Numbered from the stretch's first letter, positions 22,540 to 58,314 are shown. The stretch: DNA of 64,000 nucleotides from Candidatus Methylomirabilota bacterium (GCA_035650715.1 DASRHC010000011.1:695-64694); one strand, 5' to 3'. Translations and numbers: made by a program. The notes: generated by a model not told the origin, from the letters alone.

Positions 22540-24192
22540 TCAGGCCGCGAACTTCATGCGGCAGAAGCAGGAGGCCTTCACCGGCACCTCGGACCGGGCC
22601 AGGGCGAGATCGAGGCGCTGCTTGATCAGCGGGGCCTCCACGGTCTCGCCGCGGCGGGTGAGGCATTCGTGGAGCCCGTGCAGGCTCCACAGGTTGTCGG
22701 GATGCTGGCAGGCGCGGCTCAGCGTGCCGTCGAGGCCCAGGTCCGAGCGGTAGACCGCCTCCGCCTCCGCGACCCGGCCCTGCTCCAGGAGCAGGGCCCC
22801 CAGGGCGTGTCGGGTCGGCTGCATCCAGCCCCACGGCTCGTCGTAGGGCAGGGCGTCGTCCAGCTCCACCGACCGGCGCAGGTGCGCGAAGGCGATCTCG
22901 TGGTTGCCGCGGCGGTACTCGAGCTCGCCGTCGAGCATCGCGTGCGCGATCTCCAGCAGGTCCCGGACGGTGTTGTTGTGGACCCGCCGGCTCTCCGGGA
23001 CCCGCGCCTTCGCCTCGATGAAGGCGGCCCGCGAGGCCTCGGCCGCCGCGATGTGACCGAGCGCGGAGTGGGCGACGGTCTGCGCGTAGAGCATCATGGC
23101 GGTGGTCGCGCAGTAGAGGTCCCGGTCCCGCGGCAACTCCTGCGCGAGGATCTCGTGCCACTTGCCGAAGCGGATGAGGACGTGCTGCTTCATCGGCAGG
23201 TAGCCCTCCACGAAGTCGGCCATGGGCGGCGAGGGGATGCGCAGGAGATCCTCCGGCGTGGTGTCGATCAGCTCCTGGGCCGCGGCCAGCGCGGGCGTGT
23301 ACTGACCGAGGAACATCGCGCCGTAGATCGCGAAGTGGTAGTCGTGGGTGCGGTAGAGCGCGTAGACGTTCAGCGCTCCCTCGCGCGCCAGGAACTTTCG
23401 GTCGGCCACGATGGCCTTCTGGTTGTAGACCAGCACGTCGCGATAGTGCCCGCACAGCACGTCCAGGTGGGTCGGCATGTGGATGAGGTGGCCCGCGTCC
23501 GGCACCAGATCCCGCAGCCGGTCCCCCGCCCGCAGGGCGCGCTGCGGAAACGGCGACATCTCCATCAGGTGGACGTACAGATGGAGGAGCCCCGGATGGT
23601 CCCACGCGGCCGGGAAATCGCGGAAGGCGCTCTCCAGGACGTCCATCGCCTCCAGCGTGCCCGCGCCGTCGGCCACGCGGCCGGTCTTGAGGTCCCACAT
23701 CTTCCAGGGGGTCAGGTTCATGATCGATTCCACGAACACCTCCCGCACCTCGAGGTCGTCGCGGTGGGCGTGGAACACGCGGCGCATGGCGTCCGCGTAG
23801 GCGGCGTCCCACGGCGCCTGGTCCTCGATCGGCTCCCGCTGCGGGTACCGCGCGGGCAGCGCGCGGATCAGCGCCTGCTCGACCGGGCTCGCGCGCTCCG
23901 CGCGGGCGAGGGCGGCCTGCATCGCGTCGTATGCGGCGGCGAGGGCGGCGGCCTTGCCGGCCGGGTCGTAGAGGTGCCACGGCAGGTTGTAGTTCGGGCC
24001 GGCCGCGTAGGCGATGCCCCAGTAGGCCATGGCGCAGTCGGGGTCGTGCTCCAGCGCCCTCTTGAAGCAGGTGATGGCCTCGGCGTGGTTGAACCCGTAG
24101 AGCCAGTTGAGCCCGCGGTCGAACCAGAGCTGGGCGTCCGGGGCGGCGGTGGTGATCTTCCGAGTGTAGGAGCCGAGGTCGTAGTACGGCAT
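22540..24192 (-). CDS. TPR-like repeat protein, conserved hypothetical (550 aa)
   Basis: MPYYDLGSYTRKITT...AQLWFDRGLNWLYGFNHAEAITCFKRALEHDPDCAMAYWGIAYAAGPNYN... is all-helical and repeat-like. No enzymatic motif recognised. Confidence 0.6.
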   Translation of the reverse strand: MPYYDLGSYTRKITTAAPDAQLWFDRGLNWLYGFNHAEAITCFKRALEHDPDCAMAYWGIAYAAGPNYNLPWHLYDPAGKAAALAAAYDAMQAALARAERASPVEQALIRALPARYPQREPIEDQAPWDAAYADAMRRVFHAHRDDLEVREVFVESIMNLTPWKMWDLKTGRVADGAGTLEAMDVLESAFRDFPAAWDHPGLLHLYVHLMEMSPFPQRALRAGDRLRDLVPDAGHLIHMPTHLDVLCGHYRDVLVYNQKAIVADRKFLAREGALNVYALYRTHDYHFAIYGAMFLGQYTPALAAAQELIDTTPEDLLRIPSPPMADFVEGYLPMKQHVLIRFGKWHEILAQELPRDRDLYCATTAMMLYAQTVAHSALGHIAAAEASRAAFIEAKARVPESRRVHNNTVRDLLEIAHAMLDGELEYRRGNHEIAFAHLRRSVELDDALPYDEPWGWMQPTRHALGALLLEQGRVAEAEAVYRSDLGLDGTLSRACQHPDNLWSLHGLHECLTRRGETVEAPLIKQRLDLALARSEVPVKASCFCRMKFAA

Positions 24193-24258
24193 GACAGTCT
24201 CCTTGGCGGCGGCGGGCCGGCGGGGCCGCGGCCGGGTGAAGCGCGGACGATCAGTCCA

Positions 24259-25368
24259 TCAGTCGTAGTTGCCGTTGTTCGGGCCGTGCCACCTTCCGCG
24301 ATTGAGATCCACCCGCATGCCGACGGCCGTGAAGGGCAGGCGGAGGTTGTCGCCGAAGACGTGGAGCGCGTAGCCCCACCAGGTGCTCCGGGGCACCCTG
24401 AGGTCGAACAGGATCTGCTGCACGTTGAGCCCCACCTCGAAGCCGAGCTGCCGCTGCTGCTCGATGGCCGGGGTGACCCGGTAGCCCTTGGCACCGTACG
24501 TAACCGAGAAGAGCAGCCAGCGCAAGGGGCCGAGGTTGACGCCCAGGCGGCGAGCGAGACCGGAGAACTTGAAATCGGCGGAGTACACGTCGTGGGTGTA
24601 GCTCGAGCTGGGCAGGTGCGAGGTGCGCATGCTGAAGAGGTCCCGGGTGTGGGTCACCGAGACCAGCCCCGCGGCCAGCGCGCCCGCGGAGTCCATGGCC
24701 AGATCCTCCCACGAGAATCCGTGCCGCGTGACGCCGTCGCTCAGCTCGTTCGCGAGCCCGGTGGCGATCGCCAGGCCGACGCCGGCCAGGATCGCCTTGT
24801 TCTCCGAGTAGCCGATCATCTTGTAGGCGTCCTCGAGCAGGCTGGCGGTGACGTAGTAGTCGGTGAGGTGCGACGCCTTGTCCGCGCCGCCGTTGGTGGT
24901 GTCCTTGCCGAACCAGCCCTCCTCGTGGACCCGGAAGGAATGATTGGTGTTGTACGCGACGAGCGAGTTCGCGGTGACCGCCCCGATCGAGGTGATCGGG
25001 AGGAGGACCGAGAAGAGCGTCTGGTGGCGCTCGAGGAACGACCACCGGGGCACCTCGGTCTCGGCCCGATCGAAGCGGGGATCGAACCACGACGCGGGCG
25101 TCGACCGCTCGGGATCCCGGTCCTGGTTCAGGGCGAGGCTGGACCAGGGCTGCGCGAGCGCCAGCCTCTGCTCCGATCCCAGCCACCGCTCGGCCTCCAG
25201 GGACCGGTCCGGCAGCAGATGGTAGGGCGACTCGCCGGCCGGCCCCGCCGGTGCCTCGTCCGCGGACAGGGAGAACGGCCGCCCCCCGCGGTCCTGCGCG
25301 AGGAGGGGGCCGGCGCCCACGAGCATCAGCAGCCAGCAGAGGGCGAGCGAGCGGGTGGCTGGTCGCAC
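24259..25368 (-). CDS. exported hypothetical protein (signal peptide)
   Basis: MRPATRSLALCWLLMLVGAGPLLAQ signal peptide. C-terminal beta-rich region. No family recognised. 66 nt upstream of the TPR gene on the same strand. Confidence 0.55.
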   Translation of the reverse strand: MRPATRSLALCWLLMLVGAGPLLAQDRGGRPFSLSADEAPAGPAGESPYHLLPDRSLEAERWLGSEQRLALAQPWSSLALNQDRDPERSTPASWFDPRFDRAETEVPRWSFLERHQTLFSVLLPITSIGAVTANSLVAYNTNHSFRVHEEGWFGKDTTNGGADKASHLTDYYVTASLLEDAYKMIGYSENKAILAGVGLAIATGLANELSDGVTRHGFSWEDLAMDSAGALAAGLVSVTHTRDLFSMRTSHLPSSSYTHDVYSADFKFSGLARRLGVNLGPLRWLLFSVTYGAKGYRVTPAIEQQRQLGFEVGLNVQQILFDLRVPRSTWWGYALHVFGDNLRLPFTAVGMRVDLNRGRWHGPNNGNYD

Positions 25369-25502: not shown

Positions 25503-26234
25503 ATGAGCGACGTGGTGTTCGACGAGCGGGTGGCGAGCGAGCTGCTGCGCTATGCCCGGATGGTGGTGGCCCGCGGGTACATCCACAACTCCCTGGGGAA
25601 CATCGCGGTGCGGGCCCCCTCCCCGGGGCGGCCCCACGGGGTGGCCTACACCAAGCACGCCGAGGTGTCGCTGGAGGAGATGACCATCGACAACGTGGTC
25701 GTCACCGACATCCCGACCCCGGCGCTGCTCCATGGCCACGTGCCGACCAGCGTCGGGCACAACCTCAATCGCGAGATCCTGCGCCTCCGGCCGGACATCG
25801 GCGCGGTCATCCACGTCCACCACGACGAGACGATCGCGTTCTTCGCGGCGGGGGCCAAGGGCCTGCGGGTGCTCTCGCTCGAGTTCCCCTACGTGATGGC
25901 GATGCCGCCCCACGTGGTGCCGTCGCACCTGGACGTGGAGAACGACGTGGGGCCCATCGCCGACTTCATCGCCCACACCAACGCCCTCATCATGGAGAAC
26001 CACGGGATCACCACGCTCGGCCGCACGCTCTCCGAGGCCTACCACCGCCTGAACACGCTCACCTCGGAGATCCGGCGCAACGTCGTGGCCGAGCAGCTGG
26101 CCGCCGTCCGCGGCCACGACGTGCACGTGCTGGCCGCGGACGCGGTGGACTGGATGTACCGCTACGCGGAGAGCGTCATCTATCCGTCCCGCGACGCGAC
26201 CCGCCGCCCGGAGGGAGGCGACCGCCGGGCCTGA
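25503..26234 (+). CDS. class II aldolase/adducin family protein
   Basis: ...YIHNSLGNIAVRAP...HVHHDETIAFFAAG...IMENHGITTLGRTL is the class II aldolase fold (fuculose-phosphate aldolase-like) with the metal His pattern. Confidence 0.8.
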   Translation: MSDVVFDERVASELLRYARMVVARGYIHNSLGNIAVRAPSPGRPHGVAYTKHAEVSLEEMTIDNVVVTDIPTPALLHGHVPTSVGHNLNREILRLRPDIGAVIHVHHDETIAFFAAGAKGLRVLSLEFPYVMAMPPHVVPSHLDVENDVGPIADFIAHTNALIMENHGITTLGRTLSEAYHRLNTLTSEIRRNVVAEQLAAVRGHDVHVLAADAVDWMYRYAESVIYPSRDATRRPEGGDRRA

Positions 26235-29495: not shown

Positions 29496-29793
29496 ACACC
29501 GCCCTCCTTGTTGGGTAGGCACACTCCGATCGCCGGAGCGGCCTCCTGCGTGGCGCTGATCGATCGAGTCGGGGCGTGCCGGGAGGGACGCCCGGCGCGC
29601 CCCTTCGCCCGCCCGGGGAAATGCGTCGCCACTGTAGCGCCCGCGCGGATCGTGTTCAAGGGGCGATGGGGCGACCGGGGCCGACGGCCGGATGAGCGGG
29701 AATCCCGGCGCGGACGCCGAGGAGTGACCGGTCCGAAGGTACGCAGCCTGGGTCGAGGGCGCCCCGCAGGGAGTCGACACCCCCGCTCCTCTT

Positions 29794-29824: not shown

Positions 29825-29957
29825 TGGGAGGAGACTCGCCCACTCCCGAGCAATGACACCCGGGATAGGTCCGGACGCCTGACCGGCGTCATGCTCTCGG
29901 GACGCGGTAGGATCGGGGAGTCGCCGGGCGCGAAAAGGCCCGTCGAGGGAGGATCAC

Positions 29958-31094
29958 ATGGTCGACCGGCTCATCTCCTGCGACGATCACATGGATCTCA
30001 GCCAGCTCCCCGCGGATCTGTGGACCACGCGGCTGCCCGCGTCGCTGCTCGATCGCGCGCCGCACGTCGCGGAGCGCGACGGTCAGGCGGTCTGGCTGTG
30101 CGACGGGAAGGTGTGGGGGCGCTGGGACGGCAAGCCGCCGGCGACGGGCTCGGCGCGGGCCATCAAGCCGCTCTACAGTGCCTTTGACCGCGCGGGCATC
30201 CACGATCCGAGCGCGCGCCGTCCGGCCGTCGCCGAGCTGCGGCTGGCCGACATGGATCGCGACGGCGTCGCGACGCAGGTGATCTTCGGGCCGATCTTCC
30301 AGATCTCGACCGACGATCCGGTGCTTCGTGTCGCCTGCTATCGCGTCTACAACGACTGGCTGCTCGACTTCTGCAAGGCGGCGCCCGACCGGCTCATCGG
30401 CCTGCCGATGCTGCCGGAGACGCCCGACGCGGCGCTCGCCGAGCTCGAGCGGGTGCGCGCCAAGGGCGGGGTGCGCCAGGTCAATCTCATGATCGCCAAC
30501 ATCGACCCCAAGCTCGACGACCCGGCCTGGGAGCCGCTCTGGCAGGCGCTGGAGGACAGCGGCATCATCCTCTCCTGGCACATCACGGTGTTCGTCGGCA
30601 AGCCGGGGGATCGGGTCGCCAACAAGGCGGCGAGCGTCTTCGAGAACACCAAGTTCTTCCTCGGAAACTTCCTCGAGCCCTTCGTCGATCTCTTCGCCTG
30701 GGGCATCCTGGAGCGCCACCCGGGACTGCGCATGGTGATGGCCGAGGCGGGCGCCGGCTGGCTGCCCTGGCTCGTCCAGGAGCTCGACTACCGGCACTGG
30801 CGGCTCTGGGAGGCCAAGGAGTTCTGGGCCGACAAGGGCGGCCGCGCCCTCGTCACCAAGCCGAGCGAGCTCTTCAAGCGGCAGATCTACGCGACCTTTC
30901 AGGAAGACCACGTGGCGATGTCGCTCATCCCGTTCTTCGGCGACGGCCACCTGCTGTGGGCGTCGGACTATCCTCACCCCGACAGCGTCTGGCCCAACTC
31001 CCGGGCCGCGATCGAGCGGCAGATGCAGCACCTGTCGCCGGAGATGCGGCGGAAGCTGACCCACGACAACGCGGCCGCGCTCTACGGGCTCTGA
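29958..31094 (+). CDS. amidohydrolase 2 family protein (ACMSD-like metal-dependent hydrolase)
   Basis: MVDRLISCDDHMDLSQLPADLW...NLMIANID...WHITVF...WASDYPHPDS are the TIM-barrel amidohydrolase_2 His/Asp positions. Confidence 0.75.
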   Translation: MVDRLISCDDHMDLSQLPADLWTTRLPASLLDRAPHVAERDGQAVWLCDGKVWGRWDGKPPATGSARAIKPLYSAFDRAGIHDPSARRPAVAELRLADMDRDGVATQVIFGPIFQISTDDPVLRVACYRVYNDWLLDFCKAAPDRLIGLPMLPETPDAALAELERVRAKGGVRQVNLMIANIDPKLDDPAWEPLWQALEDSGIILSWHITVFVGKPGDRVANKAASVFENTKFFLGNFLEPFVDLFAWGILERHPGLRMVMAEAGAGWLPWLVQELDYRHWRLWEAKEFWADKGGRALVTKPSELFKRQIYATFQEDHVAMSLIPFFGDGHLLWASDYPHPDSVWPNSRAAIERQMQHLSPEMRRKLTHDNAAALYGL

Positions 31095-31112
31095 GGCGAA
31101 AAGGACACGGCA

Positions 31113-31250
31113 TGGCACGCGACAGGCGCTTCAAGGTCTGGCTGGACGGGAAGGTCGTGGACCCGGAGCAGGCGATGCTCAGCGTGTTCACGCTGACCGT
31201 CCTGCGAGGGGCGAACGTCTACGAAGGTCTGCGCGCGTACTGGAATCCGG
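31113..31250 (+). pseudogene. 5' fragment (about 45 codons) of a class IV aminotransferase (branched-chain/D-amino-acid aminotransferase) gene
   Basis: MARDRRFKVWLDGKVVDPEQAMLSVFTLTVLRGANVYEGLRAYWNP matches the IlvE N-terminus ([36 protein letters not shown]). AAAGGA RBS. The frame dissolves after about 31250, where the convergent sco1 gene ends. Confidence 0.6.
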
Positions 31251-31306
31251 CCTCAGCAGCCGCGGCTCGGCGAGCGCGTGCTGCCGAACGTCTGAGCGCG
31301 GCGCCT

Positions 31307-31927
31307 CTACCGCGCCAGGCGCTCCAGGAGGGCTGCGGGCTCGGTCGGCGCCGCCCCGAGGCCGACCTGCTGGTGGCGAACCACCCCATCCCGGTCCAGG
31401 ATCGTGATGACGTTGGAGTGGTCGAAGTCGCCGTCGGCCTTCTGCTTGTAGCGGACCCCGAGCGTCATGGCGAGCTCGCGCACGGCGGCGCGGCCGCCGT
31501 GGAAGAGCCGCCAGCGCGCCGGCTCGAGCTCGTGGGCCGCCGCGAACTTCTTCAAGACCGCCGGCCGATCACGCTCGGTATCGAAGGAGGCGAGGACGAA
31601 CCACACCCGTTCCCGGGCCTGCGGCGACAGTGTCGATTCGATGAGCTGCAGATTCGCGAGGATGAGGGGGCACGCGGTGGTGCAGTGCGTGTACACCATC
31701 GCGAGCGCGACCGGCCGGCCCCGGAGCGAGCGCAGCCGCACGCGCGTTCCGTCCATGTCGGTCCACTCGCTGCCCGACTGGTAGATCGACGAGCCCGAGA
31801 GCGGAGCCGGCCGGTCGACGTCCAGGGACCGGTGGTCGCCGTGACTGTGCGGCGGCTCGTCCTTCGCCCGGGCGGCCCCGGGAAGGACCGCGAGCGCCAT
31901 CGCGAGGACCAGCGTCATCCGGGTCAT
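31307..31927 (-). CDS. SCO1/SenC family copper chaperone (thioredoxin-like, CxxxC)
   Basis: Signal peptide [21 protein letters not shown]. ...VYTHCTTACPLILANL (CxxxCP) and downstream His are the Sco1 signature. Confidence 0.8.
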   Translation of the reverse strand: MTRMTLVLAMALAVLPGAARAKDEPPHSHGDHRSLDVDRPAPLSGSSIYQSGSEWTDMDGTRVRLRSLRGRPVALAMVYTHCTTACPLILANLQLIESTLSPQARERVWFVLASFDTERDRPAVLKKFAAAHELEPARWRLFHGGRAAVRELAMTLGVRYKQKADGDFDHSNVITILDRDGVVRHQQVGLGAAPTEPAALLERLAR

Positions 31928-32739
31928 GGCCGGTCGGGCTCGGCGGCGCAGCGGAATCCGAGGCGGCTGGTGGTGTAGCTGGCCCTCAAGCTGTTCCGCA
32001 GGGCGTAGCGCATGAAGGTGGCGTAGTCGCTCGGATCGACCGCGCCCAGGCTGCCCGAGCCGCAGAACAGCGGGTCGTCCTTTCCGCCGGGATCGCGGCT
32101 GTCCGTGCTGATGAGGGTGCTGTTGAAGTCGAGCGTCCACTCCCAGATCAACCCGTGCAGATCGTAGACGCCGTAGGCGTTCGGCGCTCCGCGGCCGACC
32201 ACGCCGAGCGGCTCGGTCGCGGGCTGGCTGTACCAGCGGAGGATGCGATCGCGCGTGGCCGCCGTGTCCTTCCCGTCGCCGGCCGCGGCGCGCTCCCACT
32301 GGTCCACGGTGGGCAGCTCCTTGCCCCGCCACTGGCAGTAGGCGTTCGCCGCGAACCAGGACACGCGGGTGACCGGCGCGTCCGGCGGCACCCGCGCTCC
32401 CGCATCGAAGTCCGACGCCCAGTCCTCGAGGTAGTGGGCGTCGGCCAGCACCGCCGCGACGCGCGACCGCGACCACTCCGGCCGGCGGCGCAGGAACTCG
32501 GCGAACTGGCGGCGCGTCACCGGCCGCCGGTCGATGAGGAAGGCCGGCACGTCGGCCGATGCGCCGCGGTCGGCGCCCGCGGCCGGGACGCCCGATCCCC
32601 CGGGGACGAAGAACGCGGCCGGCGGCCCGGCCGGCACCAGGGCCATGTCCTCCGGGGCCGCCGCGCCGCCGGCGGCGGTGCCGCTGGCCAGGGCGATGGC
32701 CGCGGCGGTCACCGCGATCAGCGCGCCGGCGGTCTTCAT
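31924..32739 (-). CDS. nirV: formylglycine-generating-enzyme family protein (NirV-like accessory protein of NirK)
   Basis: ...[28 protein letters not shown]...[16 protein letters not shown]... has the FGE-sulfatase fold. Its 4-nt ATGA overlap with sco1 and position downstream of nirK match the nirK-nirV arrangement. Confidence 0.75.
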
Positions 32740-34190
32740 TCCGACGCCTTCGCGCTGCCCTTGGCGCGATGGGTCTTCACCTCCTGCGCCGACACCTCCT
32801 TGCCGGAGTTCCCCCAGCTGCCGTAGACGTAGGTGAGCACCGCGGCGACGTCCTCGTCGGAGAGAGTCCACGCGGGCATGACCCCGTTGTACTTCTCGCC
32901 GTTCACGGTGACCGATCCCTGCAGCCCGCCGGTCACGGTCCGGATCGCGCGCACCTTGTCCGCGTTCAGGTAGTCGCTGCGGGCCAGCGGCGGGAACGCC
33001 TTGGGAATCCCTTGCCCGTTCGCCTGGTGGCAGGCCGCGCAGTTGGTGGTGTACACCGACCTTCCGCGGTCGAGCAGCTGCTTCCTCGTCAAGGCCGGCC
33101 GCGCGGGCTGCGGCGGCAGGTCGGTCACCCGGATCCGGCTGCCCTCCGGCTGGTACACCTCGTCGCTGATCTTCCCCGAGTACACGATCTTGTTGTCGCC
33201 GCCCTCCACCTTGAGCATGCCGAGCGCGCCCTTGTTGAACGCCCGCGTGAGCGAGTGGTCGACGAGGATGTAGGTGCCCGGCACCTCGACCTTGAAGTCG
33301 ATGATCGCCGCGCCGCCGGCGGGCACCATGGTGGTCTGCACGTTGTGGGAGACCACCGACGTGTTCCCTTCGGGCCACACCCGGTCGAAGATCTCGCCGA
33401 TCACGTGGAACGAGGACGTCAGGTTCGGCCCGCCGACGCCGAAGTAGAGGCGGACGGTCTCGCCGATCCTGGCCTGGAGCGCCTTGTCTCCGGCGATGGC
33501 TCCGACCGCGCCGTTGAAGACCACGTATTCCGGCCGCTCGTCGATGGCCTTGAGCATGCTGAACGGCTGCAGCCCGGGCTGACCGTTGGGTCCCTTCGTG
33601 TAGAGATCGCCCTGCATGACGTAGTACTCGCGGTCCACCTTGGGCAGGCCGTCCCTGGGCTCGACCAGGATCAGGCCGTACATGCCGTTGGCCACGTGCA
33701 TGGCCACCGGAGCGGTGGCGCAATGATAGACGTACAGCCCGGGATTCAAGGCCTTGAACGAGAACACCGAGCTGTGTCCGGGGGCGGAGAGCGACGAGGC
33801 CGCCCCCCCGCCCGGGCCGGTGACCGCATGCAGGTCGATGTTGTGCGGCATCTTGTTGTCGGGGTGGTTGTCGAGGTGGAACTCGACCAGGTCCCCCTCG
33901 CGGATTCGGATGAACTTGCCCGGGACCTTCCCGCCGAACGTCCAGAAGGAGTACCGGACGCCCTCGGCGACGGTCATCTCGGTCTCCACGACCTCCAGGC
34001 GCACGACGACCTTGGTGGCGTGCTTCCGCGTGATCGGCGGCGGCACCGTCGGCGCGTCGGTCAGCACCGCGCGCTCCTCGCCCTCCGTCGGCTCCACCGC
34101 GTTCTGGTCCGGGGCCGCCGTCGCGACGGTGGCGAACGACAGCATCAGCGCGGTAATCCACATCGGCAGGGTCCGGCGATGTCCAGGCAT
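32736..34190 (-). CDS. nirK: copper-containing nitrite reductase with C-terminal cytochrome c domain
   Basis: Two cupredoxin domains with type-1/type-2 Cu ligands (...[13 protein letters not shown]..., ...[20 protein letters not shown]...), plus a C-terminal CAACH heme-binding site. Confidence 0.9.
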
Positions 34191-34307
34191 GGCCGCCCCA
34201 TCCTCCTCGTTGAAGACGTGTGAGCTCTGCCCGACCTTAGCTGGCTCGGCCGCCGGCCCGTTATGGCGCCCGTCATATCCGGCCCTTGGGCCATCAAGAG
34301 GGGGCGA

Positions 34308-34480
34308 TGATACCGGCTCGACGCAACGTCATGGCCGAGTAGCGGGCCGCCGTCCGGGGGCACGACGCGCACGCGCTGGCGCCGGACGCGGTGGACTGGA
34401 TGTATCGCTCCGCCGAGAGCGTCATCTATCCCTCGCGGGACACGACCCGCCGCCCCGAGGGCGGAGACCGCCGGGCCCGA
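34308..34480 (+). pseudogene. 3' fragment of a class II aldolase gene (duplicate of 26066-26232)
   Basis: VMAE*RAAVRGHDAHALAPDAVDWMYRSAESVIYPSRDTTRRPEGGDRRA matches VVAEQLAAVRGHDVHVLAADAVDWMYRYAESVIYPSRDATRRPEGGDRRA of the intact gene (about 85% nt identity over about 170 nt). It has an internal stop and no upstream body. Confidence 0.7.
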
Positions 34481-34498
34481 CGCACGGGGCCGCCGCGC

Positions 34499-35407
34499 TC
34501 AGAGGGTGCGCAGCTTGGGGTCGAGGGCGTCCCGCAGGGAGTCGCCGAAGAGATTGAAGGCGAACACGGCCAGGCTGATGGCCAGGCCCGGGAAGATGGG
34601 GATCCAGGGCGCGCTCTCCGCGTACTCGGCGGCGCCGCCCTGGAGCATGAGGCCCCAGGCCGGGGTGGGCTCCTGCACGCCGAGCCCCAGGTAGGAGAGC
34701 GACGCCTCCAGCAGGATGGCCTGGCCCAGGAAGGCGGTGAGGACGATCAGGTACGGGGGGATGACGTTCGGCACCATGTGCCGCAGGATGATGCGCACGT
34801 GGCCGTACCCGCAGGCCCGCGCGGCGTCCACGTAGGGGCTCTCCCGGACCGAGAGCGCGGTGGCGCGGCAGACGCGGGCCGCGCGGGGCACCATCGGCAC
34901 CAGGATGGCGAGAATGACCTTGAAGGTGCCGGTGCCGAGGATGGCGACCACCGCCAGCGCCAGCACGATCAGGGGAAACGACAGGAAGACGTCCAGGATC
35001 CGCTGCACGATCATGTCGATCCGGCCGCCGAAGTAGCCGCTGGCGGTGCCGATGATCAGGCCCGCGGTCGCGCCGACCACGGAGGCTCCGAAGCCCACGA
35101 GCAGGGCGGTCCGCGACCCGAAGATGATGCGCGAGAGCACGTCGCGCCCGAACGAGTCCGTCCCGAGCCAGTGCCGCGCGTCGGGCGGCGCGAACATCGC
35201 GCCGTAGTCGGTCGCCAGCGGATCGTAGGGCGCGACCACCGGGGCGAGGACCGCGGTCAGCACCATGACGATCACCACCGCGACGCCCGCGAACCCGAGC
35301 GGCTTCCGGCGCGCGAAGCGCCACATCGCGGCCAGCGCGCGCCGGGCGGGTCCGTGCGCGAGCGCCGCCTCCTCGACGTCCAGCGCGGGCAGGGCCACGT
35401 CCGCCAT
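34499..35407 (-). CDS. dppC: peptide/nickel ABC transporter permease (DppC/OppC-like)
   Basis: ...PYDPLATDY...HWLGTDSFGRDVLSRII...PYVDAARACGYGHVRII are the OppC N-terminal and EAA motifs. Confidence 0.8.
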   Translation of the reverse strand: MADVALPALDVEEAALAHGPARRALAAMWRFARRKPLGFAGVAVVIVMVLTAVLAPVVAPYDPLATDYGAMFAPPDARHWLGTDSFGRDVLSRIIFGSRTALLVGFGASVVGATAGLIIGTASGYFGGRIDMIVQRILDVFLSFPLIVLALAVVAILGTGTFKVILAILVPMVPRAARVCRATALSVRESPYVDAARACGYGHVRIILRHMVPNVIPPYLIVLTAFLGQAILLEASLSYLGLGVQEPTPAWGLMLQGGAAEYAESAPWIPIFPGLAISLAVFAFNLFGDSLRDALDPKLRTL

Positions 35408-36360
35408 CAGCGGTACCGGATGCGCGGGTCGAGCCAGGCGTAGAGCAGGTCGACCACGAAGTTGGACAGGATGAACACGAAGGCCACCAGCAGCACGAGC
35501 CCCTGGACCATCGTGTAATCGTACTGGGTGACCGCGTCGACGAAGAGCTTGCCGAGGCCGTTCAGGTTGAACACCTGCTCGGTGACCACGAGCCCCCCGA
35601 TGAGGAACGCGAACTCGAGCCCGATGACCGTCACCACCGGGAGCATCGCGTTCTTGAGCGCGTGGCGGGTGAGGATCAGCTTGCGCCGGATGCCCTTGGC
35701 CCGCGCGGTGCGGATGTAGTCCTCGCGCAGCACCTCGAGCACCGCGGAGCGCGTCATGCGCGTGGCCACCGCCGAGTAGCGGTACCCGGTGGCGAGGGCC
35801 GGCCAGATGAGCTGGGAGAGGTTCCCCCAGGGATCCACCCAGAACGGCACGTACACCATCGGCGGAGTCCAGTGGAACGCGATCAGGAAGCCGAGGAGGA
35901 TGAGGATGCCGAGCCAGAAGGAGGGCATGGCGAGCCCCGCGATGGAGAAGACGCGCACCGCGTAGTCGGGCCATCGATCCTGGTAGAGCGCCGCGATGGT
36001 CCCGAGGGGCAGGGCGAGCGCGATCGCGATGAGGGTCGCCATGATGGCGATCTGCAGCGAGAGCTGGAACCGGATCCCGATCTCGTAGGTGACCGGCCGG
36101 CCCGTCCACATGGAGAGGCCCAGGTCCAGCCGGGTCAGGCCCTTCATCCAGTCCACGAACTGGCGTCCGATCGACCGGTCCAGGCCGAGGCGCTGGCGCT
36201 CCTGCTGCATCGCCTCCTCGCTGACGAACCCGCCCTCCCCGGCCATCCGGAGCTGCACGATGTCACCGGGCAGCAGCCGGATGAGCACGAAGATGAACAG
36301 CGCGACCCCGAAGAGGGTGGGGAACATCATCAGGAACCGCCTCACCAGATAGCGGCGCAT
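35407..36360 (-). CDS. dppB: peptide/nickel ABC transporter permease (DppB/OppB-like)
   Basis: MRRYLVRRFLMMFPTLFGVALFIFVLIRLLPGD...EDYIRTARAKGIRRKLILTRHALKNA is the EAA loop. The stop overlaps the dppC ATG. Confidence 0.8.
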   Translation of the reverse strand: MRRYLVRRFLMMFPTLFGVALFIFVLIRLLPGDIVQLRMAGEGGFVSEEAMQQERQRLGLDRSIGRQFVDWMKGLTRLDLGLSMWTGRPVTYEIGIRFQLSLQIAIMATLIAIALALPLGTIAALYQDRWPDYAVRVFSIAGLAMPSFWLGILILLGFLIAFHWTPPMVYVPFWVDPWGNLSQLIWPALATGYRYSAVATRMTRSAVLEVLREDYIRTARAKGIRRKLILTRHALKNAMLPVVTVIGLEFAFLIGGLVVTEQVFNLNGLGKLFVDAVTQYDYTMVQGLVLLVAFVFILSNFVVDLLYAWLDPRIRYR

Positions 36361-36384
36361 AGAAAACGACGCGGGCCCACCGGC

Positions 36385-38001
36385 CTACTCCGGCGCGAGC
36401 CACACGTTGGCCAGGTCCTGGTTCAGGTAGTGGCTCGGGCTGATCTTCCAGCCGTGGAGCCGGGCGTTGTAGGGGACGATCCGGTTCCACCAGAGCGTCA
36501 TGATGTAGTGGGCCTGCTCGTCGAGGACCCGCTTCTCGAACCGCCGCAGATCGCTCTTCAGCTTGCCCTGGTCGGTCTCGTGGACGATCTCGTCGTACAG
36601 GCCGTCCAGCGTGCGGTCCTGGTACTGGGCGTAGTTGGAGGCGGAGCGGTCGTTGGAGAGGAACTTCGAGATGTCGAGCACGGGATTCACGACCGCCTGG
36701 CAGTTGAAGTCCATGGTCACCTGGAAGTTGCCGTTCCGCAGGGTCGCGAAGAAGGGCGCGGTCGGCTCCACCCAGTGCTCGACGTTGAGGCCGATCTGCC
36801 GCCACTGGTCGATGAGCCAGATGCCGACCGCCTTGTAGGGCTGCTCGACCGCCCGGTTGTGCAGCTTGAAGGAGAAGCCGTCGGGCACGCCGGCCTCCCG
36901 GAGGAGGCGGCGGGCCTCGGTGCGGGCGGCCTTGATGTCGGTGCCGTAGCCCGCGATGGTCTGCAGCTCGGCCTGGGACGCGGCCAGGGGTGAGCCCGGG
37001 AACACGAGCCCGCCGACCGTCTTGACGATGGCGACCCTGGAGAGCGCCTTCGATCCCTCCCAGCGATCGAGGGCCAGCGACAGGGCCCGACGCACGCGCG
37101 GATCGTCGAAGGGCTTGGCCTTGTGGTTGGGGGCCAGGTAGAGGCCGCAGTTCCACGGGCTCTCCTGGACGGCGAGCTTGTCCCCCATCGCGGCCCGGAG
37201 GTCCTCCACCGCCTTGGGCGGGAAGGCCCGGAAGTTGATCATGGCCCGGCCGCCCCGGATGGCGGCCAGCTGCGGCGCCTCCTGCTTGATGAAGATGGCG
37301 CGGAAGCCGTCCAGGTACGGCAGGCCCGGCATGAAGTAGTCGGGGTTGCGGACTCCCGAGACGTGGGAGCCGGCCACGTACTCCTTGAACTTGAACGGGC
37401 CGCTGCCCATCACGTGCGTCTCGTACCAGTGGATGTCGCGGGCCAGGATGTCGGCCTCGTAGATCCAGTTGTAGGGGTTGGCCAGCGCGGGAATGAACGC
37501 CTCGGTGGCGAACTTCAGCCGGAAGACCACGGTGGTGGGGTCGGGCGCCTCCACGCTCTTGACCATGAAGAACATGGCCTTGCGATCGCTCACCACGCCT
37601 TCGGGCGGGAAGATGATCTTGTCGAAGCTCGCCTTCACGTCCCGCGAGGTGAGCGGGTTGCCGTCGTGGAACTTCACGTTCTTGCGGAGCTTGAACGTGT
37701 ACGTGAGACCGTCGGCGCTCTTGGTCCAGCTCTCGGCCACGTCGCCCACGAAGGCGGTCGGGTCCGACGGGTTCTTCGGGTCCACCTTGATCAGCAGGCT
37801 GTAGAAGGGACGCAGGGGATGGATGACCGCGTAGGTCTCCTCCCGGTGGGCGTCCATGCTCGGAAAGCCCGCGGCGGGCACGACGAAGTCGAGCTCGCCC
37901 CCGCGCACCGGCGTCTCCTCCGCGGGCGCCCGCACGGGCAGGGCGAGGAGCAGGGCCACCAGCAGGACGGACACTCTCGTGACGGTAGACGTCGGGACCA
38001 T
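36385..38001 (-). CDS. ABC transporter substrate-binding protein, family 5 (peptide/nickel)
   Basis: Signal peptide MVPTSTVTRVSVLLVALLLALPVRAPA, SBP_bac_5 fold (...TFKLRKNVKFHDGNPLTSRDV...). GAGGAGG RBS. Confidence 0.8.
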   Translation of the reverse strand: MVPTSTVTRVSVLLVALLLALPVRAPAEETPVRGGELDFVVPAAGFPSMDAHREETYAVIHPLRPFYSLLIKVDPKNPSDPTAFVGDVAESWTKSADGLTYTFKLRKNVKFHDGNPLTSRDVKASFDKIIFPPEGVVSDRKAMFFMVKSVEAPDPTTVVFRLKFATEAFIPALANPYNWIYEADILARDIHWYETHVMGSGPFKFKEYVAGSHVSGVRNPDYFMPGLPYLDGFRAIFIKQEAPQLAAIRGGRAMINFRAFPPKAVEDLRAAMGDKLAVQESPWNCGLYLAPNHKAKPFDDPRVRRALSLALDRWEGSKALSRVAIVKTVGGLVFPGSPLAASQAELQTIAGYGTDIKAARTEARRLLREAGVPDGFSFKLHNRAVEQPYKAVGIWLIDQWRQIGLNVEHWVEPTAPFFATLRNGNFQVTMDFNCQAVVNPVLDISKFLSNDRSASNYAQYQDRTLDGLYDEIVHETDQGKLKSDLRRFEKRVLDEQAHYIMTLWWNRIVPYNARLHGWKISPSHYLNQDLANVWLAPE

Positions 38002-38210
38002 CTCGTGCCTCCTCGATCGACTCGGCGGCCGCTCCCGCACCGCCACCAGGACGTGTGCTCCACCATGTCCCACCCGAAGGTGAGAGGAGCGTGAGAGGAA
38101 CGTGAGAACCGCGTGAGAAGCACGCGGCAGCCGTGGTAGGTTGCGCAGGAGGCGGGGACCGGTTCCGGCCGGGTTGGCCCCCGCGAGAACGACGGAGGGC
38201 GAGCCCGACC

Positions 38211-39527
38211 ATGACCAAGATGCACCTGATGTGGTTCTGCGCGTTCAATCCCCACGCGGGGTTCGGCCTGGACGGCTGGGCGGGGCCCCGGACCGGCGGC
38301 TACGAGTGGACCCGGCCGGAGCTGTGGCAGGACATGGCGGCGGCGCTCGAGCGCGCCAGGTTCGACCTGATCATGCTGGGAGACAGCCTCGCGGTGCCGG
38401 GCACCTACCAGGGGCGAATGGACGCCTATCTGCGCTACGCCGAGCACGTGCCGTTCCACGATCCCGGCCCCCTGATCGCGGTCATGGCCGCGGCCACCCG
38501 GCGCATCGGCCTCGCGGCCACGCTGTCGACCACGTTCTACCCGCCCTACCTGCTCGCCCGCCTCATGACGACGCTCGACCACCTGAGCCGCGGGCGCGCG
38601 GCCTGGAACGTGGTGACCTCCTACAAGGTGGAGGAGGCGCTCAATTTCGGCTACACGGAGCTGCTCGACCACGACCAGCGCTACGACCGGGCCGACGAGT
38701 ACATGGAGCTGTGCTACCGGCTCTGGTCGAGCTGGGATCCCGACGCGGTGGTCATGGATCAGCGCACCGACACCTTCGCCGATCCCGCGAAGGTGCACCC
38801 CATCGACTTCGAGGGCGCGTACTACCGCTCGCGCGGGCCGCTCAACGCGACGCCGTCGCCGCAGGGCCGGCCGGTCATCATCCAGGCCGGCGCTTCCGAC
38901 CGTGGTCAGGACTTCGCGGCCCGCCACGCCGAGGCGGTCATCGTCTCGCGGGAGACGGTGGACGAGATGAAGCAGTACTACGACGCGTTCAAGGCCCGGG
39001 TGGCCCGGCAGGGCCGCGATCCCGACGAGTGCAAGGTGTTCTTCCTGAGCAAGCCCATCATCGGCGACACCGACGAGGAGGCCCGGCAACGCGCCGACGA
39101 GCTGTACGCCAACGCGCCGGTGGAGGCGGGGCTCGCGTCGCTCTCGACGATGATGCAGATCGATCTGTCCGCCTACGACCTGGACAGGCCGCTCCCCGAT
39201 GCCATCCAGACCCGCGCCATCCAGGGCATCCGCAGCCAGCTGGACCGCTTCTACATGTCCGGGCGCACCCCGACGCTGCGGGACATCGCCACCCGCAAGG
39301 TGAGCATCGACTCCAAGCCGTACATCGGCACCCCGGAGCGCGTCGCCGACGAGCTGGCGCGGACGATCGACGCGGTGGGCGGCGACGGCTTCGCCATCCG
39401 GCAGGGCATCTGGCCGGGCTACGTCCTGCCCTTCGTGGACAAGGTCATCCCGCTGCTCCAGCAGCGGGGCGCGGTGCGCACCGAGTACAAGGGCACGACC
39501 CTCCGGGAGCACCTGCGGGAGTTCTAG
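38211..39527 (+). CDS. LLM-class flavin-dependent monooxygenase (NtaA/SnaA/DszA subfamily)
   Basis: MTKMHLMWFCAFNPHAGF...WTRPELWQDMAAALERARFDLIMLGDSL... is the long (about 440 aa) luciferase-like monooxygenase of the NtaA type. Confidence 0.8.
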   Translation: MTKMHLMWFCAFNPHAGFGLDGWAGPRTGGYEWTRPELWQDMAAALERARFDLIMLGDSLAVPGTYQGRMDAYLRYAEHVPFHDPGPLIAVMAAATRRIGLAATLSTTFYPPYLLARLMTTLDHLSRGRAAWNVVTSYKVEEALNFGYTELLDHDQRYDRADEYMELCYRLWSSWDPDAVVMDQRTDTFADPAKVHPIDFEGAYYRSRGPLNATPSPQGRPVIIQAGASDRGQDFAARHAEAVIVSRETVDEMKQYYDAFKARVARQGRDPDECKVFFLSKPIIGDTDEEARQRADELYANAPVEAGLASLSTMMQIDLSAYDLDRPLPDAIQTRAIQGIRSQLDRFYMSGRTPTLRDIATRKVSIDSKPYIGTPERVADELARTIDAVGGDGFAIRQGIWPGYVLPFVDKVIPLLQQRGAVRTEYKGTTLREHLREF

Positions 39528-39539
39528 GCGGTCGGGACG

Positions 39540-57287: not shown

Positions 57288-58301
57288 TCACACGTACGGC
57301 AGGACGCGCTCGCCGAAGAGCCGGATGGCCTCGAGGATCTTCTCGTGCGGCGGCCCGCCCGAATGGGCGTGGCGCAGGCGAAGCAGGAAGGTGCTGGCGC
57401 CGGTGGCCTCGCGCCAGCGCTGGAATTCCCGGACGCACGTGTCGGGGTCGCCCAGGACGAGCCGATCGGGGGCGAGAGTCGTCAGGTTGAACTCGGCGCC
57501 CGCGGGGAGCGTGCGGAACTCGGCCAGGCGATTTTCCCAGTAGTAACGGTAGGCGGTCATCACGTGCGGGCCGTAGACGGCGTCGGCCTCCGCGCGGGAC
57601 CGCGCGACCCAGGCATCGCGCATCTGGATCACCTCGGCCGGACGATGGGCCTCGCGCGCGGCCTCGCGGTACACCTGCGCGAGACGCGTCGCATTGGCGA
57701 GCCCGGTGCTGGGGGTGCCCACGAAGCCGTCGGCGATCCGGCCCGCCCGGCGCGCGGCCGCCTCGATGCTGGCGCCGATCCAGAGCGGCGGGCCGCCCTT
57801 CTGGTAGGGCCGCGGAAGGATCCGCACGTCCTCGAGGGTGTAGTGCTTGCCGCGGTACGAGAACGGCTCGCTGGTCCAGCAGAGACGCAGGATCTCGATG
57901 CTCTCCTCGAAGCGACCGGCCCGATCCTCCATCGGCACCGAGAAGGCCCGGAAGTCCGCCGGCTGATAGCCGATGCCCACGCCCAGGATCACGCGGCCCT
58001 TGGAGACCAGATCCAGCGTGACGACGTCCTCGGCGACGCGCACCGGGTGATGGAGCGGCAGCAGGATCACCGAGGTGCCGACCCGGAGCCGGCTGGTCCG
58101 GGCCGCCACCGCGGTGGCCACGATCAGGGGCGACGGCAGGAAGCCGTCCCTGTCCTGATGGTGCTCGCCGAAGAAGCAGGAGTCGAAGCCGACCGCCTCG
58201 GCCTGCTGTGCCTCGGCGATCACCTCGTCGATGCAGCGATCGAGCCGCTCCCCCCGAGGCGGGTTGGCGATGGAGCTGTAGAGACCGAACTTCATGGCCA
58301 C
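57288..58301 (-). CDS. LLM-class flavin-dependent oxidoreductase (luciferase-like)
   Basis: MKFGLYSS...VGFDSCFFGEHH...VILGVGIGYQPADF... Third LLM-family gene in the window. Confidence 0.8.
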   Translation of the reverse strand: MAMKFGLYSSIANPPRGERLDRCIDEVIAEAQQAEAVGFDSCFFGEHHQDRDGFLPSPLIVATAVAARTSRLRVGTSVILLPLHHPVRVAEDVVTLDLVSKGRVILGVGIGYQPADFRAFSVPMEDRAGRFEESIEILRLCWTSEPFSYRGKHYTLEDVRILPRPYQKGGPPLWIGASIEAAARRAGRIADGFVGTPSTGLANATRLAQVYREAAREAHRPAEVIQMRDAWVARSRAEADAVYGPHVMTAYRYYWENRLAEFRTLPAGAEFNLTTLAPDRLVLGDPDTCVREFQRWREATGASTFLLRLRHAHSGGPPHEKILEAIRLFGERVLPYV

Positions 58302-58314
58302 CGCGCGGCGCCGG

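What the first reader, a model, noticed from the sequence alone, without database searches (positions are those of the whole stretch)
31113..34480. nirK-nirV-sco1 nitrite-reductase cassette bounded by two gene fragments (possible acquired module)
The copper nitrite reductase operon (nirK with fused cytochrome c domain, FGE-like nirV, Sco1 copper chaperone, 31307-34190) is flanked on one side by a 45-codon 5' stub of an ilvE-like aminotransferase (31113-31250), which is cut off exactly where sco1 ends. On the other side is a 3' stub of a class II aldolase gene (34308-34480), an 85%-identical copy of the end of the intact aldolase 8 kb upstream. Gene remnants on both borders are the typical scar of insertion or replacement by recombination. 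This suggests the denitrification step was acquired or shuffled into this locus.
Basis: partly seen in the sequence, partly recalled or inferred. Interest (0 to 1): 0.6.

Follow-up and report, generated by a model that had tools for sequence, protein, structure and literature searches.

The report
Nitrite-reductase operon flanked by deletion scars
An ordinary copper nitrite-reductase operon in an uncultured soil bacterium (Rokubacteria) is bordered by real gene fragments. These fragments are what is left of its own former neighbour genes after deletions, not genes cut by its insertion.

Summary
nirK (with a fused cytochrome c domain), nirV and sco1 lie at 31307-34190 on the minus strand. On one side is a 46-codon 5' stub of an ilvE-type aminotransferase (31112-31252). 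On the other is a 54-codon 3' stub of a class II aldolase (34319-34480). Both junctions recur in at least 7 independent assemblies.

A sister Rokubacteria lineage (L191/L192) carries the same cassette at 96% nucleotide identity, with intact ilvE and aldolase as neighbours. Relative to it, the window lacks 7.5 kb between ilvE codon 47 and sco1, and 1.1 kb of the aldolase. The aldolase stub is 93.8% identical to that neighbour gene but only 87% to the window's own upstream aldolase. So the stubs are deletion scars of the cassette's old neighbours, not genes cut by a nirK insertion.

Two further remnants exist: a luciferase-like gene tail (31263-31295) and a dppC tail (29729-29776).

Divergence at four-fold degenerate (silent) sites is 0.05-0.16 in the cassette, its stubs and the adjacent amidohydrolase gene, against 0.30-0.41 in the five other genes shared with that lineage. 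This suggests a recent exchange of this stretch between lineages. Base composition is unremarkable.

This is a known kind of operon and ordinary, well-documented genome plasticity.

The parts
29729..29776 (-). Remnant of the last ~16 codons of a dppC-like permease gene. The stop codon is lost and there is a 1-nt deletion. It is a direct repeat of the true dppC 3' end at 34496-34544.
   Evidence: 85.7% over 49 nt. Protein-level match DSLRGALDP vs DSLRDALDP. Alignment.
29958..31094 (+). Amidohydro_2 gene. It is adjacent to ilvE both here and in sister lineage L191.
   Evidence: Pfam 5.5e-31. 95-96% nt identity to L191. In more than 20 other Rokubacteria genomes homology is limited to the coding sequence and the neighbouring genes differ.
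31112..31252 (+). 5' stub (46-47 codons) of an ilvE-type class IV aminotransferase; a pseudogene remnant.
   Evidence: PDB 5ce8 E=1.3e-8. 92% nt identity to intact ilvE in L191, with homology ending at 31252. The rest of ilvE is absent from the window. A 17-nt frameshifting duplication is polymorphic among strains.
31263..31295 (+). Probable remnant of the last ~11 codons plus stop of a luciferase-like monooxygenase gene (PRLGERVLPNV*). It fills the gap between the ilvE stub and sco1.
   Evidence: 29/32 nt match to the 3' end of the Bac_luciferase gene at 57288-58694. 26/29 nt match to the tail of LLM336 in L191. Statistically marginal (E about 1e-4). An intact luciferase-like gene faces sco1 in L185/L187.
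31307..31927 (-). sco1/senC copper chaperone, last gene of the operon.
   Evidence: Pfam SCO1-SenC 1.1e-16. Gene call of 206 aa. CxxxC motif in the translation.
31924..32739 (-). nirV, an FGE-sulfatase-domain accessory protein.
   Evidence: Pfam 4e-32. Found downstream of nirK in about 60 of 79 related loci.
32736..34190 (-). nirK, a three-domain copper nitrite reductase with a tethered C-terminal cytochrome c.
   Evidence: Pfam. PDB 2ZOO and 3ZIY aligned full length. The 90% identity cluster includes proteins named Methylomirabilota.
34191..34322 (-). nirK upstream region that travels with the cassette. It contains the ribosome-binding site GGAGGA and the operator-like palindrome.
   Evidence: Homology to L191/L192 runs through to 34322. 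87% identity in the non-coding part. Homology to L190 runs to 34283.
34262..34277 (.). Conserved palindrome TATGAC-N4-G(T/C/G)CATA, about 75-95 nt upstream of the nirK ATG; a candidate operator.
   Evidence: Present in the window, L185-187, L190, L091 and L188, although the surrounding upstream sequence is otherwise poorly conserved.
34319..34480 (+). 3' stub (54 codons) of the class II aldolase that neighbours nirK in the sister lineage. It has an in-frame TAG at 34340 and its stop is mutated to CGA. Its 3' flank is conserved to 34505.
   Evidence: 93.8% identity to the intact L192 aldolase, against 87.0% to the window's aldolase. Relative to L192, 1135 nt are missing at the 34319-34322 junction.
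34499..38073 (-). dppC-dppB-SBP5 ABC transporter operon. L192 has only a 188-nt spacer at this position.
   Evidence: Pfam. Relatives L170-175 share 34481-37967 only. L192 goes from the aldolase straight to LLM438. There is a 7-nt overlap, TCAGAGG, at the join.
25503..26234 (+). Intact class II aldolase. It is the more distant relative of the stub, not its source.
   Evidence: Pfam 6e-21. 88% nt identity and 4-fold divergence of 0.34 to the L192 aldolase.
22540..25368 (-). TPR (tetratricopeptide-repeat) and DUF2279 genes. In L191/L192 these lie between ilvE and the nirK cassette; here they are displaced, and DUF2279 is inverted.
   Evidence: Blocks 22538-24211 (89%) and 24261-25349 (83%, inverted). 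Pfam.
38211..39527 (+). Luciferase-like gene (LLM438). It directly follows the aldolase in L192.
   Evidence: 88.8% over 38203-39818. 4-fold divergence 0.30.
57288..58694 (-). Luciferase-like gene, orthologous to LLM336 of L191. In L191 that gene lies between DUF2279 and the nirK cassette.
   Evidence: 86% nt identity, inverted. Pfam Bac_luciferase 2e-68. 4-fold divergence 0.35.

Best explanation
What it is. This is a standard periplasmic nitrite-to-NO module. NirK carries its own electron-entry domain, so electrons pass from the tethered cytochrome c to the type 1 copper and then to the type 2 copper. NirV is an FGE-like accessory protein. Sco1 is a CxxxC copper chaperone. The module is preceded by its own ribosome-binding site and a conserved palindrome, TATGAC-N4-GTCATA. 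I infer that this palindrome is an operator for a CRP/FNR-type, NO- or oxygen-responsive regulator.

How the borders arose (shown by comparison). A sister Rokubacteria lineage has this gene order: amidohydrolase - ilvE - TPR - DUF2279 - luciferase-like gene - AMP-binding - PP/thioesterase - sco1/nirV/nirK - aldolase - luciferase-like gene LLM438. The window keeps amidohydrolase, the nirK operon and LLM438 in the same order and orientation. It has lost the DNA between ilvE codon 47 and sco1, which is 7.5 kb in the relative. An ~11-codon luciferase-like tail remains there as filler. It has also lost 1.1 kb covering the aldolase 5' two-thirds. A dpp transporter operon sits where the relative has 188 nt. 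The two stubs are therefore the surviving ends of the cassette's former neighbour genes, left by deletions joined at no more than 4-7 nt of microhomology.

Inferred, less certain. The stretch from at least 30180 to 34505 is 3-6 times less diverged at silent sites from the sister lineage than the other shared genes. So this stretch was probably exchanged between the two lineages recently. It was then pruned of genes that the genome also holds elsewhere: TPR, DUF2279, a luciferase-like gene and an aldolase.
For: - Cassette identity.
- Sister-lineage gene order with intact ilvE (317 aa) and intact aldolase (396/397 aa) flanking a nirK that is 96% nt identical.
- Homology blocks and breakpoints at 31252 | 31299 and at 34319-34322.
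- The stub is 93.8% identical to the L192 aldolase and 87.0% to the window's aldolase.
- The displaced TPR/DUF2279 and the luciferase-like gene are found elsewhere in the window.
- Luciferase-like tail filler.
- Stubs are not under coding selection. ilvE' carries a 17-nt frameshift polymorphism. ald' has an in-frame stop and a lost stop codon.
- 4-fold divergence from L191/L192: nirK 0.06, nirV 0.05, sco1 0.12, ald' 0.10 and ilvE' 0.16. The other shared genes give TPR 0.31-0.34, DUF2279 0.39, aldolase 0.34-0.41, LLM438 0.30 and LLM 0.35.
- The cassette is the unit of conservation. Homology runs from 31307 to 34218-34283 in L091, L185-187 and L190, and from 31311 to 34168 in L188, each time with different flanks.
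- The cassette's upstream palindrome is conserved.
- Both junctions are seen in many assemblies.
Against: - The direction and timing of the exchange are unknown.
- The 'high-divergence' class rests on five genes, whose orthology is inferred from partial synteny only. They could be paralogues.
- Amidohydrolase has low silent-site divergence to many species (0.15 to L010/L013), so it does not help date the event.
- No compositional anomaly was found.
- No integrase or transposase gene is called within ±10 kb. No tRNA gene is found anywhere in the window.
- The luciferase-like tail match is short and marginal.
- The rearrangement is not a simple deletion. TPR/DUF2279 and the luciferase-like gene persist elsewhere in the window, one of them inverted.
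- The 49-nt dppC-tail repeat is not explained by this model.
- The regulator assignment is inference only.
Confidence: 0.7

Rival explanations
1. The nirK-nirV-sco1 cassette inserted into, or replaced part of, a resident locus, cutting a resident ilvE on one side and a resident aldolase on the other. On this view the aldolase stub is a diverged copy of the aldolase 8 kb upstream.
For: Gene fragments lie on both borders. The cassette occurs in other contexts in other genomes. In two relatives it lies next to a tRNA gene.
Against: In L191/L192 the same cassette is already flanked by the intact versions of both genes. The stub is closer to that nirK-adjacent aldolase (93.8%) than to the window's own (87.0%). 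The ilvE stub abuts a luciferase-like tail, not sco1. No relative with an empty site was found using the amidohydrolase, dppC or ilvE as anchors.
Confidence: 0.08
2. Purely vertical history. The cassette and its neighbours were in the common ancestor of the window and L191/L192. The window lineage simply suffered local deletions and rearrangements. The low silent-site divergence of the cassette reflects gene-specific constraint or mutation rate, or the more diverged genes are paralogues, and there was no recent exchange.
For: Large-scale gene order TPR-DUF2279 ... nirK operon ... aldolase ... LLM438 is shared. Composition is typical. The arrangement is fixed in the population. Rokubacteria genomes are reported as mostly non-syntenic, with small islands of synteny (PMC5712423).
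Against: There is a 3-6 fold gap in 4-fold divergence between adjacent blocks. This includes poorly conserved proteins (nirV, sco1) and the two pseudogene stubs, which cannot be under codon-level selection. nirK itself reaches 0.23-0.31 against other relatives (L190, L185), so it is not intrinsically slow-evolving.
Confidence: 0.25
3. The segment 29777-34495 is the decayed remnant of an integrative element that entered at the 3' end of dppC. The 49-nt dppC tails (29729-29776 and 34496-34544) would be its att-like direct repeats, and its integration genes were lost afterwards.
For: Direct repeats of the dppC tail flank exactly the low-divergence stretch. There is 7-nt microhomology at the right join. 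The stretch shows three internal deletions relative to L191. The cassette is next to a tRNA gene in L190 and L188.
Against: No integrase, transposase or other mobility gene is called in the segment or within ±10 kb. The repeats are only 86% identical. The donor-like L192 has no dppC tail beside its aldolase beyond 14 nt. The left limit of the low-divergence stretch is unknown because the L191 contig ends there.
Confidence: 0.1
4. Assembly chimera, or the stubs are real short functional ORFs.
For: None beyond the stub ORF having an ATG and a long antisense-of-sco1 reading frame.
Against: Each junction appears in at least 7 independent assemblies, and one contig spans both. ilvE' has a frameshift polymorphism. 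ald' has an internal stop and no start. No gene is called there by the source pipelines. Rfam gives no match at or near a family's own threshold (one weak match, E=0.72).
Confidence: 0.02

Closest known systems
Three-domain, cytochrome c-tethered copper nitrite reductases (Pseudoalteromonas haloplanktis PhNiR, PDB 2ZOO; Ralstonia pickettii RpNiR, PDB 3ZIY)
   Same: Full-length alignment (E about 1e-185). The copper-ligand motifs HNIDLH, YHC...MH...GM and VDHS are visible in the sequence, as is a C-terminal CAACH haem site.
   Different: None of note. It is a Rokubacteria/Methylomirabilota orthologue, and the identity read from the 2ZOO alignment is roughly 60-65%.
nirK-nirV operons (Rhodobacter sphaeroides nirV, cited in PMC4770552; NirV found in about 61% of nirK genomes)
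   Same: nirV (FGE-sulfatase domain) lies immediately downstream of nirK, overlapping it by 4 nt.
   Different: Here, and in about 60 of 79 related metagenome loci, a sco1/senC gene follows as a third conserved member. PMC4770552 does not mention SenC (0 occurrences); I did not check for Sco1 there.
Patchy nirK phylogeny explained by transfer, duplication and loss (Jones et al., discussed in PMC4770552), and Rokubacteria genomes described as 'mostly non-syntenic with small islands of synteny' (PMC5712423)
   Same: The cassette is conserved as a unit in different neighbourhoods. Operon-sized blocks are shuffled between related genomes.
   Different: Here the breakpoints can be read at nucleotide resolution. 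Four gene-end remnants and a sister lineage preserve the undeleted state.
Genomic islands or integrative elements at tRNA or gene 3' ends
   Same: Direct repeats of a gene 3' end flank the segment, and some relatives have a tRNA gene next to the cassette.
   Different: There is no integrase, no compositional deviation and no tRNA in the window. This is not filed as a member.

Membership tests
Copper nitrite reductase NirK, cytochrome c-fused three-domain class | Two cupredoxin domains carrying type 1 and type 2 copper ligands and the catalytic Asp/His | tested here: met
   Pfam Cu-oxidase_3/_2. Residues 39-475 align to 2ZOO with the ligand motifs conserved. Motifs read directly in the translation.
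Copper nitrite reductase NirK, cytochrome c-fused three-domain class | C-terminal class I cytochrome c domain with CXXCH | tested here: met
   Pfam Cytochrom_C 7e-13 at residues 374-455. CAACH is present in the sequence.
Copper nitrite reductase NirK, cytochrome c-fused three-domain class | Nitrite-reducing activity | not testable with these tools
   Requires an enzyme assay.
NirV | FGE-sulfatase-domain protein encoded directly downstream of nirK | tested here: met
   Pfam 4e-32. Position confirmed by gene calls. The same arrangement occurs in most related loci.
Sco1/SenC copper chaperone | SCO1-SenC thioredoxin-like fold with a CxxxC copper-binding motif | tested here: met
   Pfam 1.1e-16. 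HCTTACP is present in the translation.
Pseudogene remnant (ilvE', ald') | Truncated relative to intact orthologues, and reading frame not maintained | tested here: met
   46 of 317 codons and 54 of about 250 conserved codons remain. Frameshift polymorphism. Internal stop and lost stop codon.
Genomic island / integrative element | Integrase or other mobility gene, tRNA or att site, and compositional deviation | tested here: not met
   No mobility gene is called within ±10 kb. No tRNA gene anywhere in the window. Tetranucleotide z about 0. The only hint is the 49-nt imperfect direct repeats.
Integron gene cassette | Promoterless single ORF with an attC site next to an integron integrase | not tested
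   No attC search was run. The unit has three genes, its own upstream regulatory region and no nearby integrase call, so membership is unlikely.
CRP/FNR-type (NnrR/Dnr-like) operator upstream of nirK | TTGAT-N4-ATCAA-like palindrome (TGA-N6-TCA core) at a suitable distance, plus a cognate regulator | tested here: inconclusive
   The palindrome TATGAC-N4-GTCATA is conserved in the window and all seven close relatives compared (L185-187, L190, L091, L188). It has the TGA-N6-TCA core, but its first base differs from the consensus. No regulator was sought.

The most novel reading that the evidence does not exclude
A roughly 13-kb stretch carrying the nirK operon was imported from a sister Rokubacteria lineage into a genome that already held more distant copies of most of its genes. 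It was then pruned by three microhomology-joined deletions down to the genes that were new, namely the nirK operon and the amidohydrolase. This left four gene-end stubs and a duplicated dppC tail. The locus would then be a nucleotide-resolution snapshot of 'acquire, then prune the redundant genes' as the way denitrification steps spread in soil bacteria.
Probability: 0.35. Interest if true: 0.45.

Novelty: new member of a known kind. Interest (0 to 1): 0.3.

Why it matters
nirK is patchily distributed among soil bacteria, and how single denitrification steps move between genomes affects NO and N2O budgets. This locus does not reveal a new system. It does give an unusually legible example, because a sister lineage preserves the intact neighbourhood and every scar can be assigned to a specific lost gene. 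It also shows that flanking gene stubs need not mark the insertion of the gene they flank. They can be the eroded remains of that gene's own old neighbours. That is a useful caution for calling 'acquired modules' from scars alone.

Tried and rejected
1. Synteny through the amidohydrolase (genome-contig scan). Eighty loci were returned, but homology was confined to the coding sequence and every context differed. No empty site was found.
2. Protein search with the 46-aa stub. It gave only three short contigs. L089 has a full-length but frameshifted ilvE with unrelated upstream DNA. L090 has another truncated ilvE among fragment-like ORFs.
3. Synteny through dppC. The dpp operon is conserved as a block, but other genes follow dppC.
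4. nirK metagenome scan. The cassette is conserved and the flanks are unrelated.
5. I first proposed that two tandem 'aldolase/dpp' loci existed and that the SBP1 operon had inserted between copies (notes). I dropped this once L192 showed that the stub derives from the nirK-adjacent aldolase.
6. GC and tetranucleotide deviation of the cassette: none.
7. Rfam, the promoter/terminator consensus scan and the repeat search at the cassette ends gave nothing meaningful.
8. I tested whether strain SNPs in the cassette are alleles imported from the sister lineage. They are not.
9. One look-up (P0250) was wasted, because that protein is the window's own nirK with a shorter start.
Full report
SOURCE AND SETTING. 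The window is about 70% GC. It matches a 73.8-kb ENA metagenome contig (ERZ27279688 k141_1626288). Its nirK is identical, apart from the called start, to NCBI protein HZP35818.1 from a 'Methylomirabilota bacterium' MAG. The nearest genome hits are Candidatus Rokubacteria MAGs.

OBSERVATION: THE GENES.
- nirK (32736-34190, minus strand) has two cupredoxin domains and a C-terminal cytochrome c.
- It aligns end to end with the cytochrome-tethered nitrite reductases 2ZOO and 3ZIY (E about 1e-185).
- nirV (31924-32739) is an FGE-sulfatase-domain protein.
- sco1 (31307-31927) is a SCO1/SenC protein with a CxxxC motif.

OBSERVATION: THE STUBS.
- The ilvE-like stub starts at ATG 31112. Its 46 residues match the N-terminus of solved branched-chain aminotransferases (5ce8, E=1.3e-8).
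- The aldolase stub matches 26073-26250 at 85.5% over 179 nt (E=1.5e-53). This is the strongest internal repeat in the whole 64 kb.
- The aldolase stub carries an in-frame TAG at 34340-34342, and its stop codon is mutated to CGA.
- Coordinates need small corrections: 31112 instead of 31113, and 34319 instead of 34308.
- ilvE homology ends at 31252, which is 54 nt before the sco1 stop codon.

OBSERVATION: NOT AN ARTEFACT. Neither border is an assembly artefact.
- The left junction recurs in 7 other contigs.
- The right junction recurs in 6 other assemblies.
- L181 spans both junctions, and all contigs are 99.5-100% identical to the window.

THE STUBS ARE DEAD GENES.
- Two strain contigs (L002, L181) carry a 17-nt tandem duplication directly after the stub's ATGG. 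This shifts the frame.
- The rest of ilvE is not in the window.
- No gene is called on either stub by the source pipelines.

THE CASSETTE AS A UNIT.
- In about 60 of 79 related metagenome loci, nirK is followed by nirV and sco1. No locus shares the window's flanking genes.
- Against the closer relatives, DNA homology begins at the sco1 stop (31307; 31311 for L188). This covers L091, L185-187 and L188 at 79-85% nt. L190 (90% nt) reaches its contig end at 31754.
- Homology ends 27-93 nt upstream of the nirK ATG, except in L188, where it stops 22 nt inside nirK (34168).
- The flanks differ in every case:
  - a ParB-like gene and a regulator in L091;
  - an aminotransferase and a luciferase-like gene facing sco1 in L185-187;
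  - tRNA-Met and a CoA-transferase in L188;
  - tRNA-Leu in L190.
- A palindrome, TATGAC-N4-G(T/C/G)CATA, is conserved in all of them 75-95 nt upstream of the ATG (window 34262-34277).
- I infer, without test, that this palindrome is a CRP/FNR-type operator.

THE DECISIVE COMPARISON. The 90% identity cluster of the window's NirK contained P0254, which is encoded on L191 (a 71-kb contig) and on L192-194. Turned to the window's orientation, L191 reads: amidohydrolase, intact ilvE (317 aa), TPR, DUF2279, luciferase-like LLM336, AMP-binding, PP-binding/thioesterase, then sco1-nirV-nirK, then an intact class II aldolase. L192 is the same but continues from the aldolase through 188 nt into a 438-aa luciferase-like gene. 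The homology blocks to the window are:

| Window block | Content | Identity |
|---|---|---|
| 30180-31252 | amidohydrolase plus ilvE 5' end | 95.2% |
| 31299-34322 | cassette with its whole upstream region | 96.0% |
| 34319-34505 | aldolase 3' end and flank | 90.6% to L192 |
| 38203-39818 | LLM438 | 88.8% |
| 22538-24211 | TPR | 89% |
| 24261-25349 | DUF2279, inverted | 83% |
| 57288-58294 | LLM336, inverted | 86% |

WHAT THE WINDOW HAS LOST.
- Relative to the sister lineage, the window lacks 7.5 kb between ilvE codon 47 and a point 8 nt beyond the sco1 stop.
- It also lacks 1135 nt comprising the spacer and the aldolase 5' two-thirds. That junction shows at most 4 nt of overlap.
- A 3.7-kb dpp operon stands where L192 has 188 nt. 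It is joined at a 7-nt overlap, TCAGAGG, that includes the dppC stop codon.
- Over its 162 coding nt, the aldolase stub is 93.8% identical to the intact L192 aldolase but only 87.0% to the window's own aldolase.
- The stub is therefore the remnant of the nirK-adjacent gene, not a copy of the upstream one.

THE FILLER BETWEEN ilvE' AND sco1.
- The 46-nt filler (31253-31298) reads ...PRLGERVLPNV*.
- It matches the tails of the luciferase-like genes of the window (57288-58694; Pfam) and of L191 about equally, at 26/29 nt.
- This is short and statistically marginal.
- It fits the position of such a gene next to sco1 in L185-187.

A FOURTH REMNANT. The last 16 codons of a dppC-like gene lie at 29729-29776.

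WAS THE CASSETTE ACQUIRED? Base composition says nothing. The tetranucleotide distance of the cassette from the window mean is z about 0, and GC is 0.707. Silent sites are more informative. Four-fold degenerate site divergence from L191/L192 is shown below.

| Gene or stub | 4-fold divergence from L191/L192 |
|---|---|
| nirK | 0.06 |
| nirV | 0.05 |
| sco1 | 0.12 |
| aldolase stub | 0.10 (n=30) |
| ilvE stub | 0.16 (n=25) |
| amidohydrolase | 0.13 |
| TPR | 0.31-0.34 |
| DUF2279 | 0.39 |
| intact aldolase | 0.34-0.41 |
| LLM438 | 0.30 |
| luciferase-like gene at 57 kb | 0.35 |

- nirK is not intrinsically slow. It reaches 0.23 against L190 and 0.31 against L185.
- The two pseudogene stubs share the low value, and they cannot be under codon-level selection.
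- The simplest reading is that the stretch from at least 30180 to 34505 shares a much more recent ancestor with the sister lineage than the surrounding genes do. That points to recent recombinational exchange between related Rokubacteria, in an unknown direction.
- The genes missing from the stretch (TPR, DUF2279, a luciferase-like gene, an aldolase) are exactly those the window also holds in more diverged copies elsewhere. This fits loss of redundant genes after acquisition.

CAVEATS.
- The orthology of the five more-diverged genes rests on partial synteny only.
- Amidohydrolase is equally close (0.15) to other species, so it is uninformative here.
- The L191 contig ends inside the amidohydrolase, so the left limit of the stretch is unknown.
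- The 49-nt dppC-tail repeats that bracket 29777-34495 remain unexplained.
- They could be a target duplication, or the product of a recombination anchored on one side by homology and joined on the other without it. No mobility gene is present.

VERDICT. The specific mechanism is wrong, however. The cassette did not cut ilvE and the aldolase. They were its neighbours and were eroded around it.

- The operon is a known kind. nirK-nirV pairing is documented (PMC4770552).
- Cytochrome-fused NirK structures are solved.
- Operon-scale shuffling is already described for Rokubacteria (PMC5712423).
- Interest is modest: a clean, nucleotide-resolution example rather than a new system.

Noticed in passing
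window 29898-31110; loci L009-L088: The Amidohydro_2 gene behaves as a lone wandering gene. It is 86-94% nt identical in more than 20 Rokubacteria species genomes and 81-87% aa identical in Alphaproteobacteria (Stellaceae, Acetobacteraceae) MAGs. Homology stops within about 10-60 nt of the coding sequence, and the neighbouring genes differ in all six genomes inspected; none of the related loci shares the window's other genes. Its 4-fold divergence to L010/L013 is only 0.15.
   Followed up: partly
window 29729-29776 and 34496-34544: 49-nt imperfect (86%) direct repeats of the dppC 3' end bracket exactly the segment holding amidohydrolase, both stubs and the nirK operon. The left copy has lost its stop codon and its frame. 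Their origin is not resolved; they could be a target duplication or a recombination anchored by homology on one side only.
   Followed up: partly
window 25500-29900: The SBP_bac_1-type ABC transporter operon (26262-29495) is the strongest compositional outlier of the window. Tetranucleotide distance reaches z=4.0 and GC is 0.664, against about 0.71 for the window. Part of this may be membrane-protein bias.
   Followed up: no
window 31116 (L002 and L181): A 17-nt tandem duplication, CACGCGACAGGCGCTTC, is polymorphic in the population, just after the start codon of the ilvE stub.
   Followed up: yes
window 31924-34190: Within-population nucleotide diversity is 3-8 times higher in nirV (0.0033) and nirK (0.0025) than in dppC, dppB or amidohydrolase (0.0003-0.0005) across 7-8 strain contigs. 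The variant alleles do not look like imports from the sister lineage.
   Followed up: partly
L191 vs L192 (aldolase gene; L191 original coordinates 8570-9323): The two sister-lineage contigs align over 10.6 kb at 98.8% overall, but are only 73.5% identical in the last 162 nt of the aldolase. Beyond its stop codon they are unrelated: a TPP enzyme and sulfatase in one, LLM438 in the other. The aldolase 3' end looks like a recurrent recombination breakpoint.
   Followed up: partly
L190 33-119; L188 7590-7665: In two relatives the nirK cassette lies directly downstream of a tRNA gene: tRNA-Leu(CAG) in L190 and tRNA-Met in L188. No integrase is seen in the sequence held.
   Followed up: no
L092 944-3733 and 10001-12876: One metagenome contig (55% GC) carries two copies of nirK-nirV-sco1 about 9 kb apart.
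   Followed up: no
L090 (862-nt ENA contig): A second, independent truncated ilvE (63 codons) is followed by fragment-like ORFs: an SRPBCC-like start and a DUF1501 gene with an internal stop. This could be another scarred locus or a poor assembly.
   Followed up: no
window 34262-34277 and equivalents in L185-188, L190, L091: The palindrome TATGAC-N4-GTCATA is conserved upstream of nirK in the high-GC clade, although the surrounding non-coding sequence is otherwise poorly conserved. It is a candidate regulator binding site.
   Followed up: partly
window 63339-63969 and 52516-53365: There are two weak internal direct repeats (about 68-69% over 160-280 nt), probably adjacent paralogous gene segments.
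   Followed up: no
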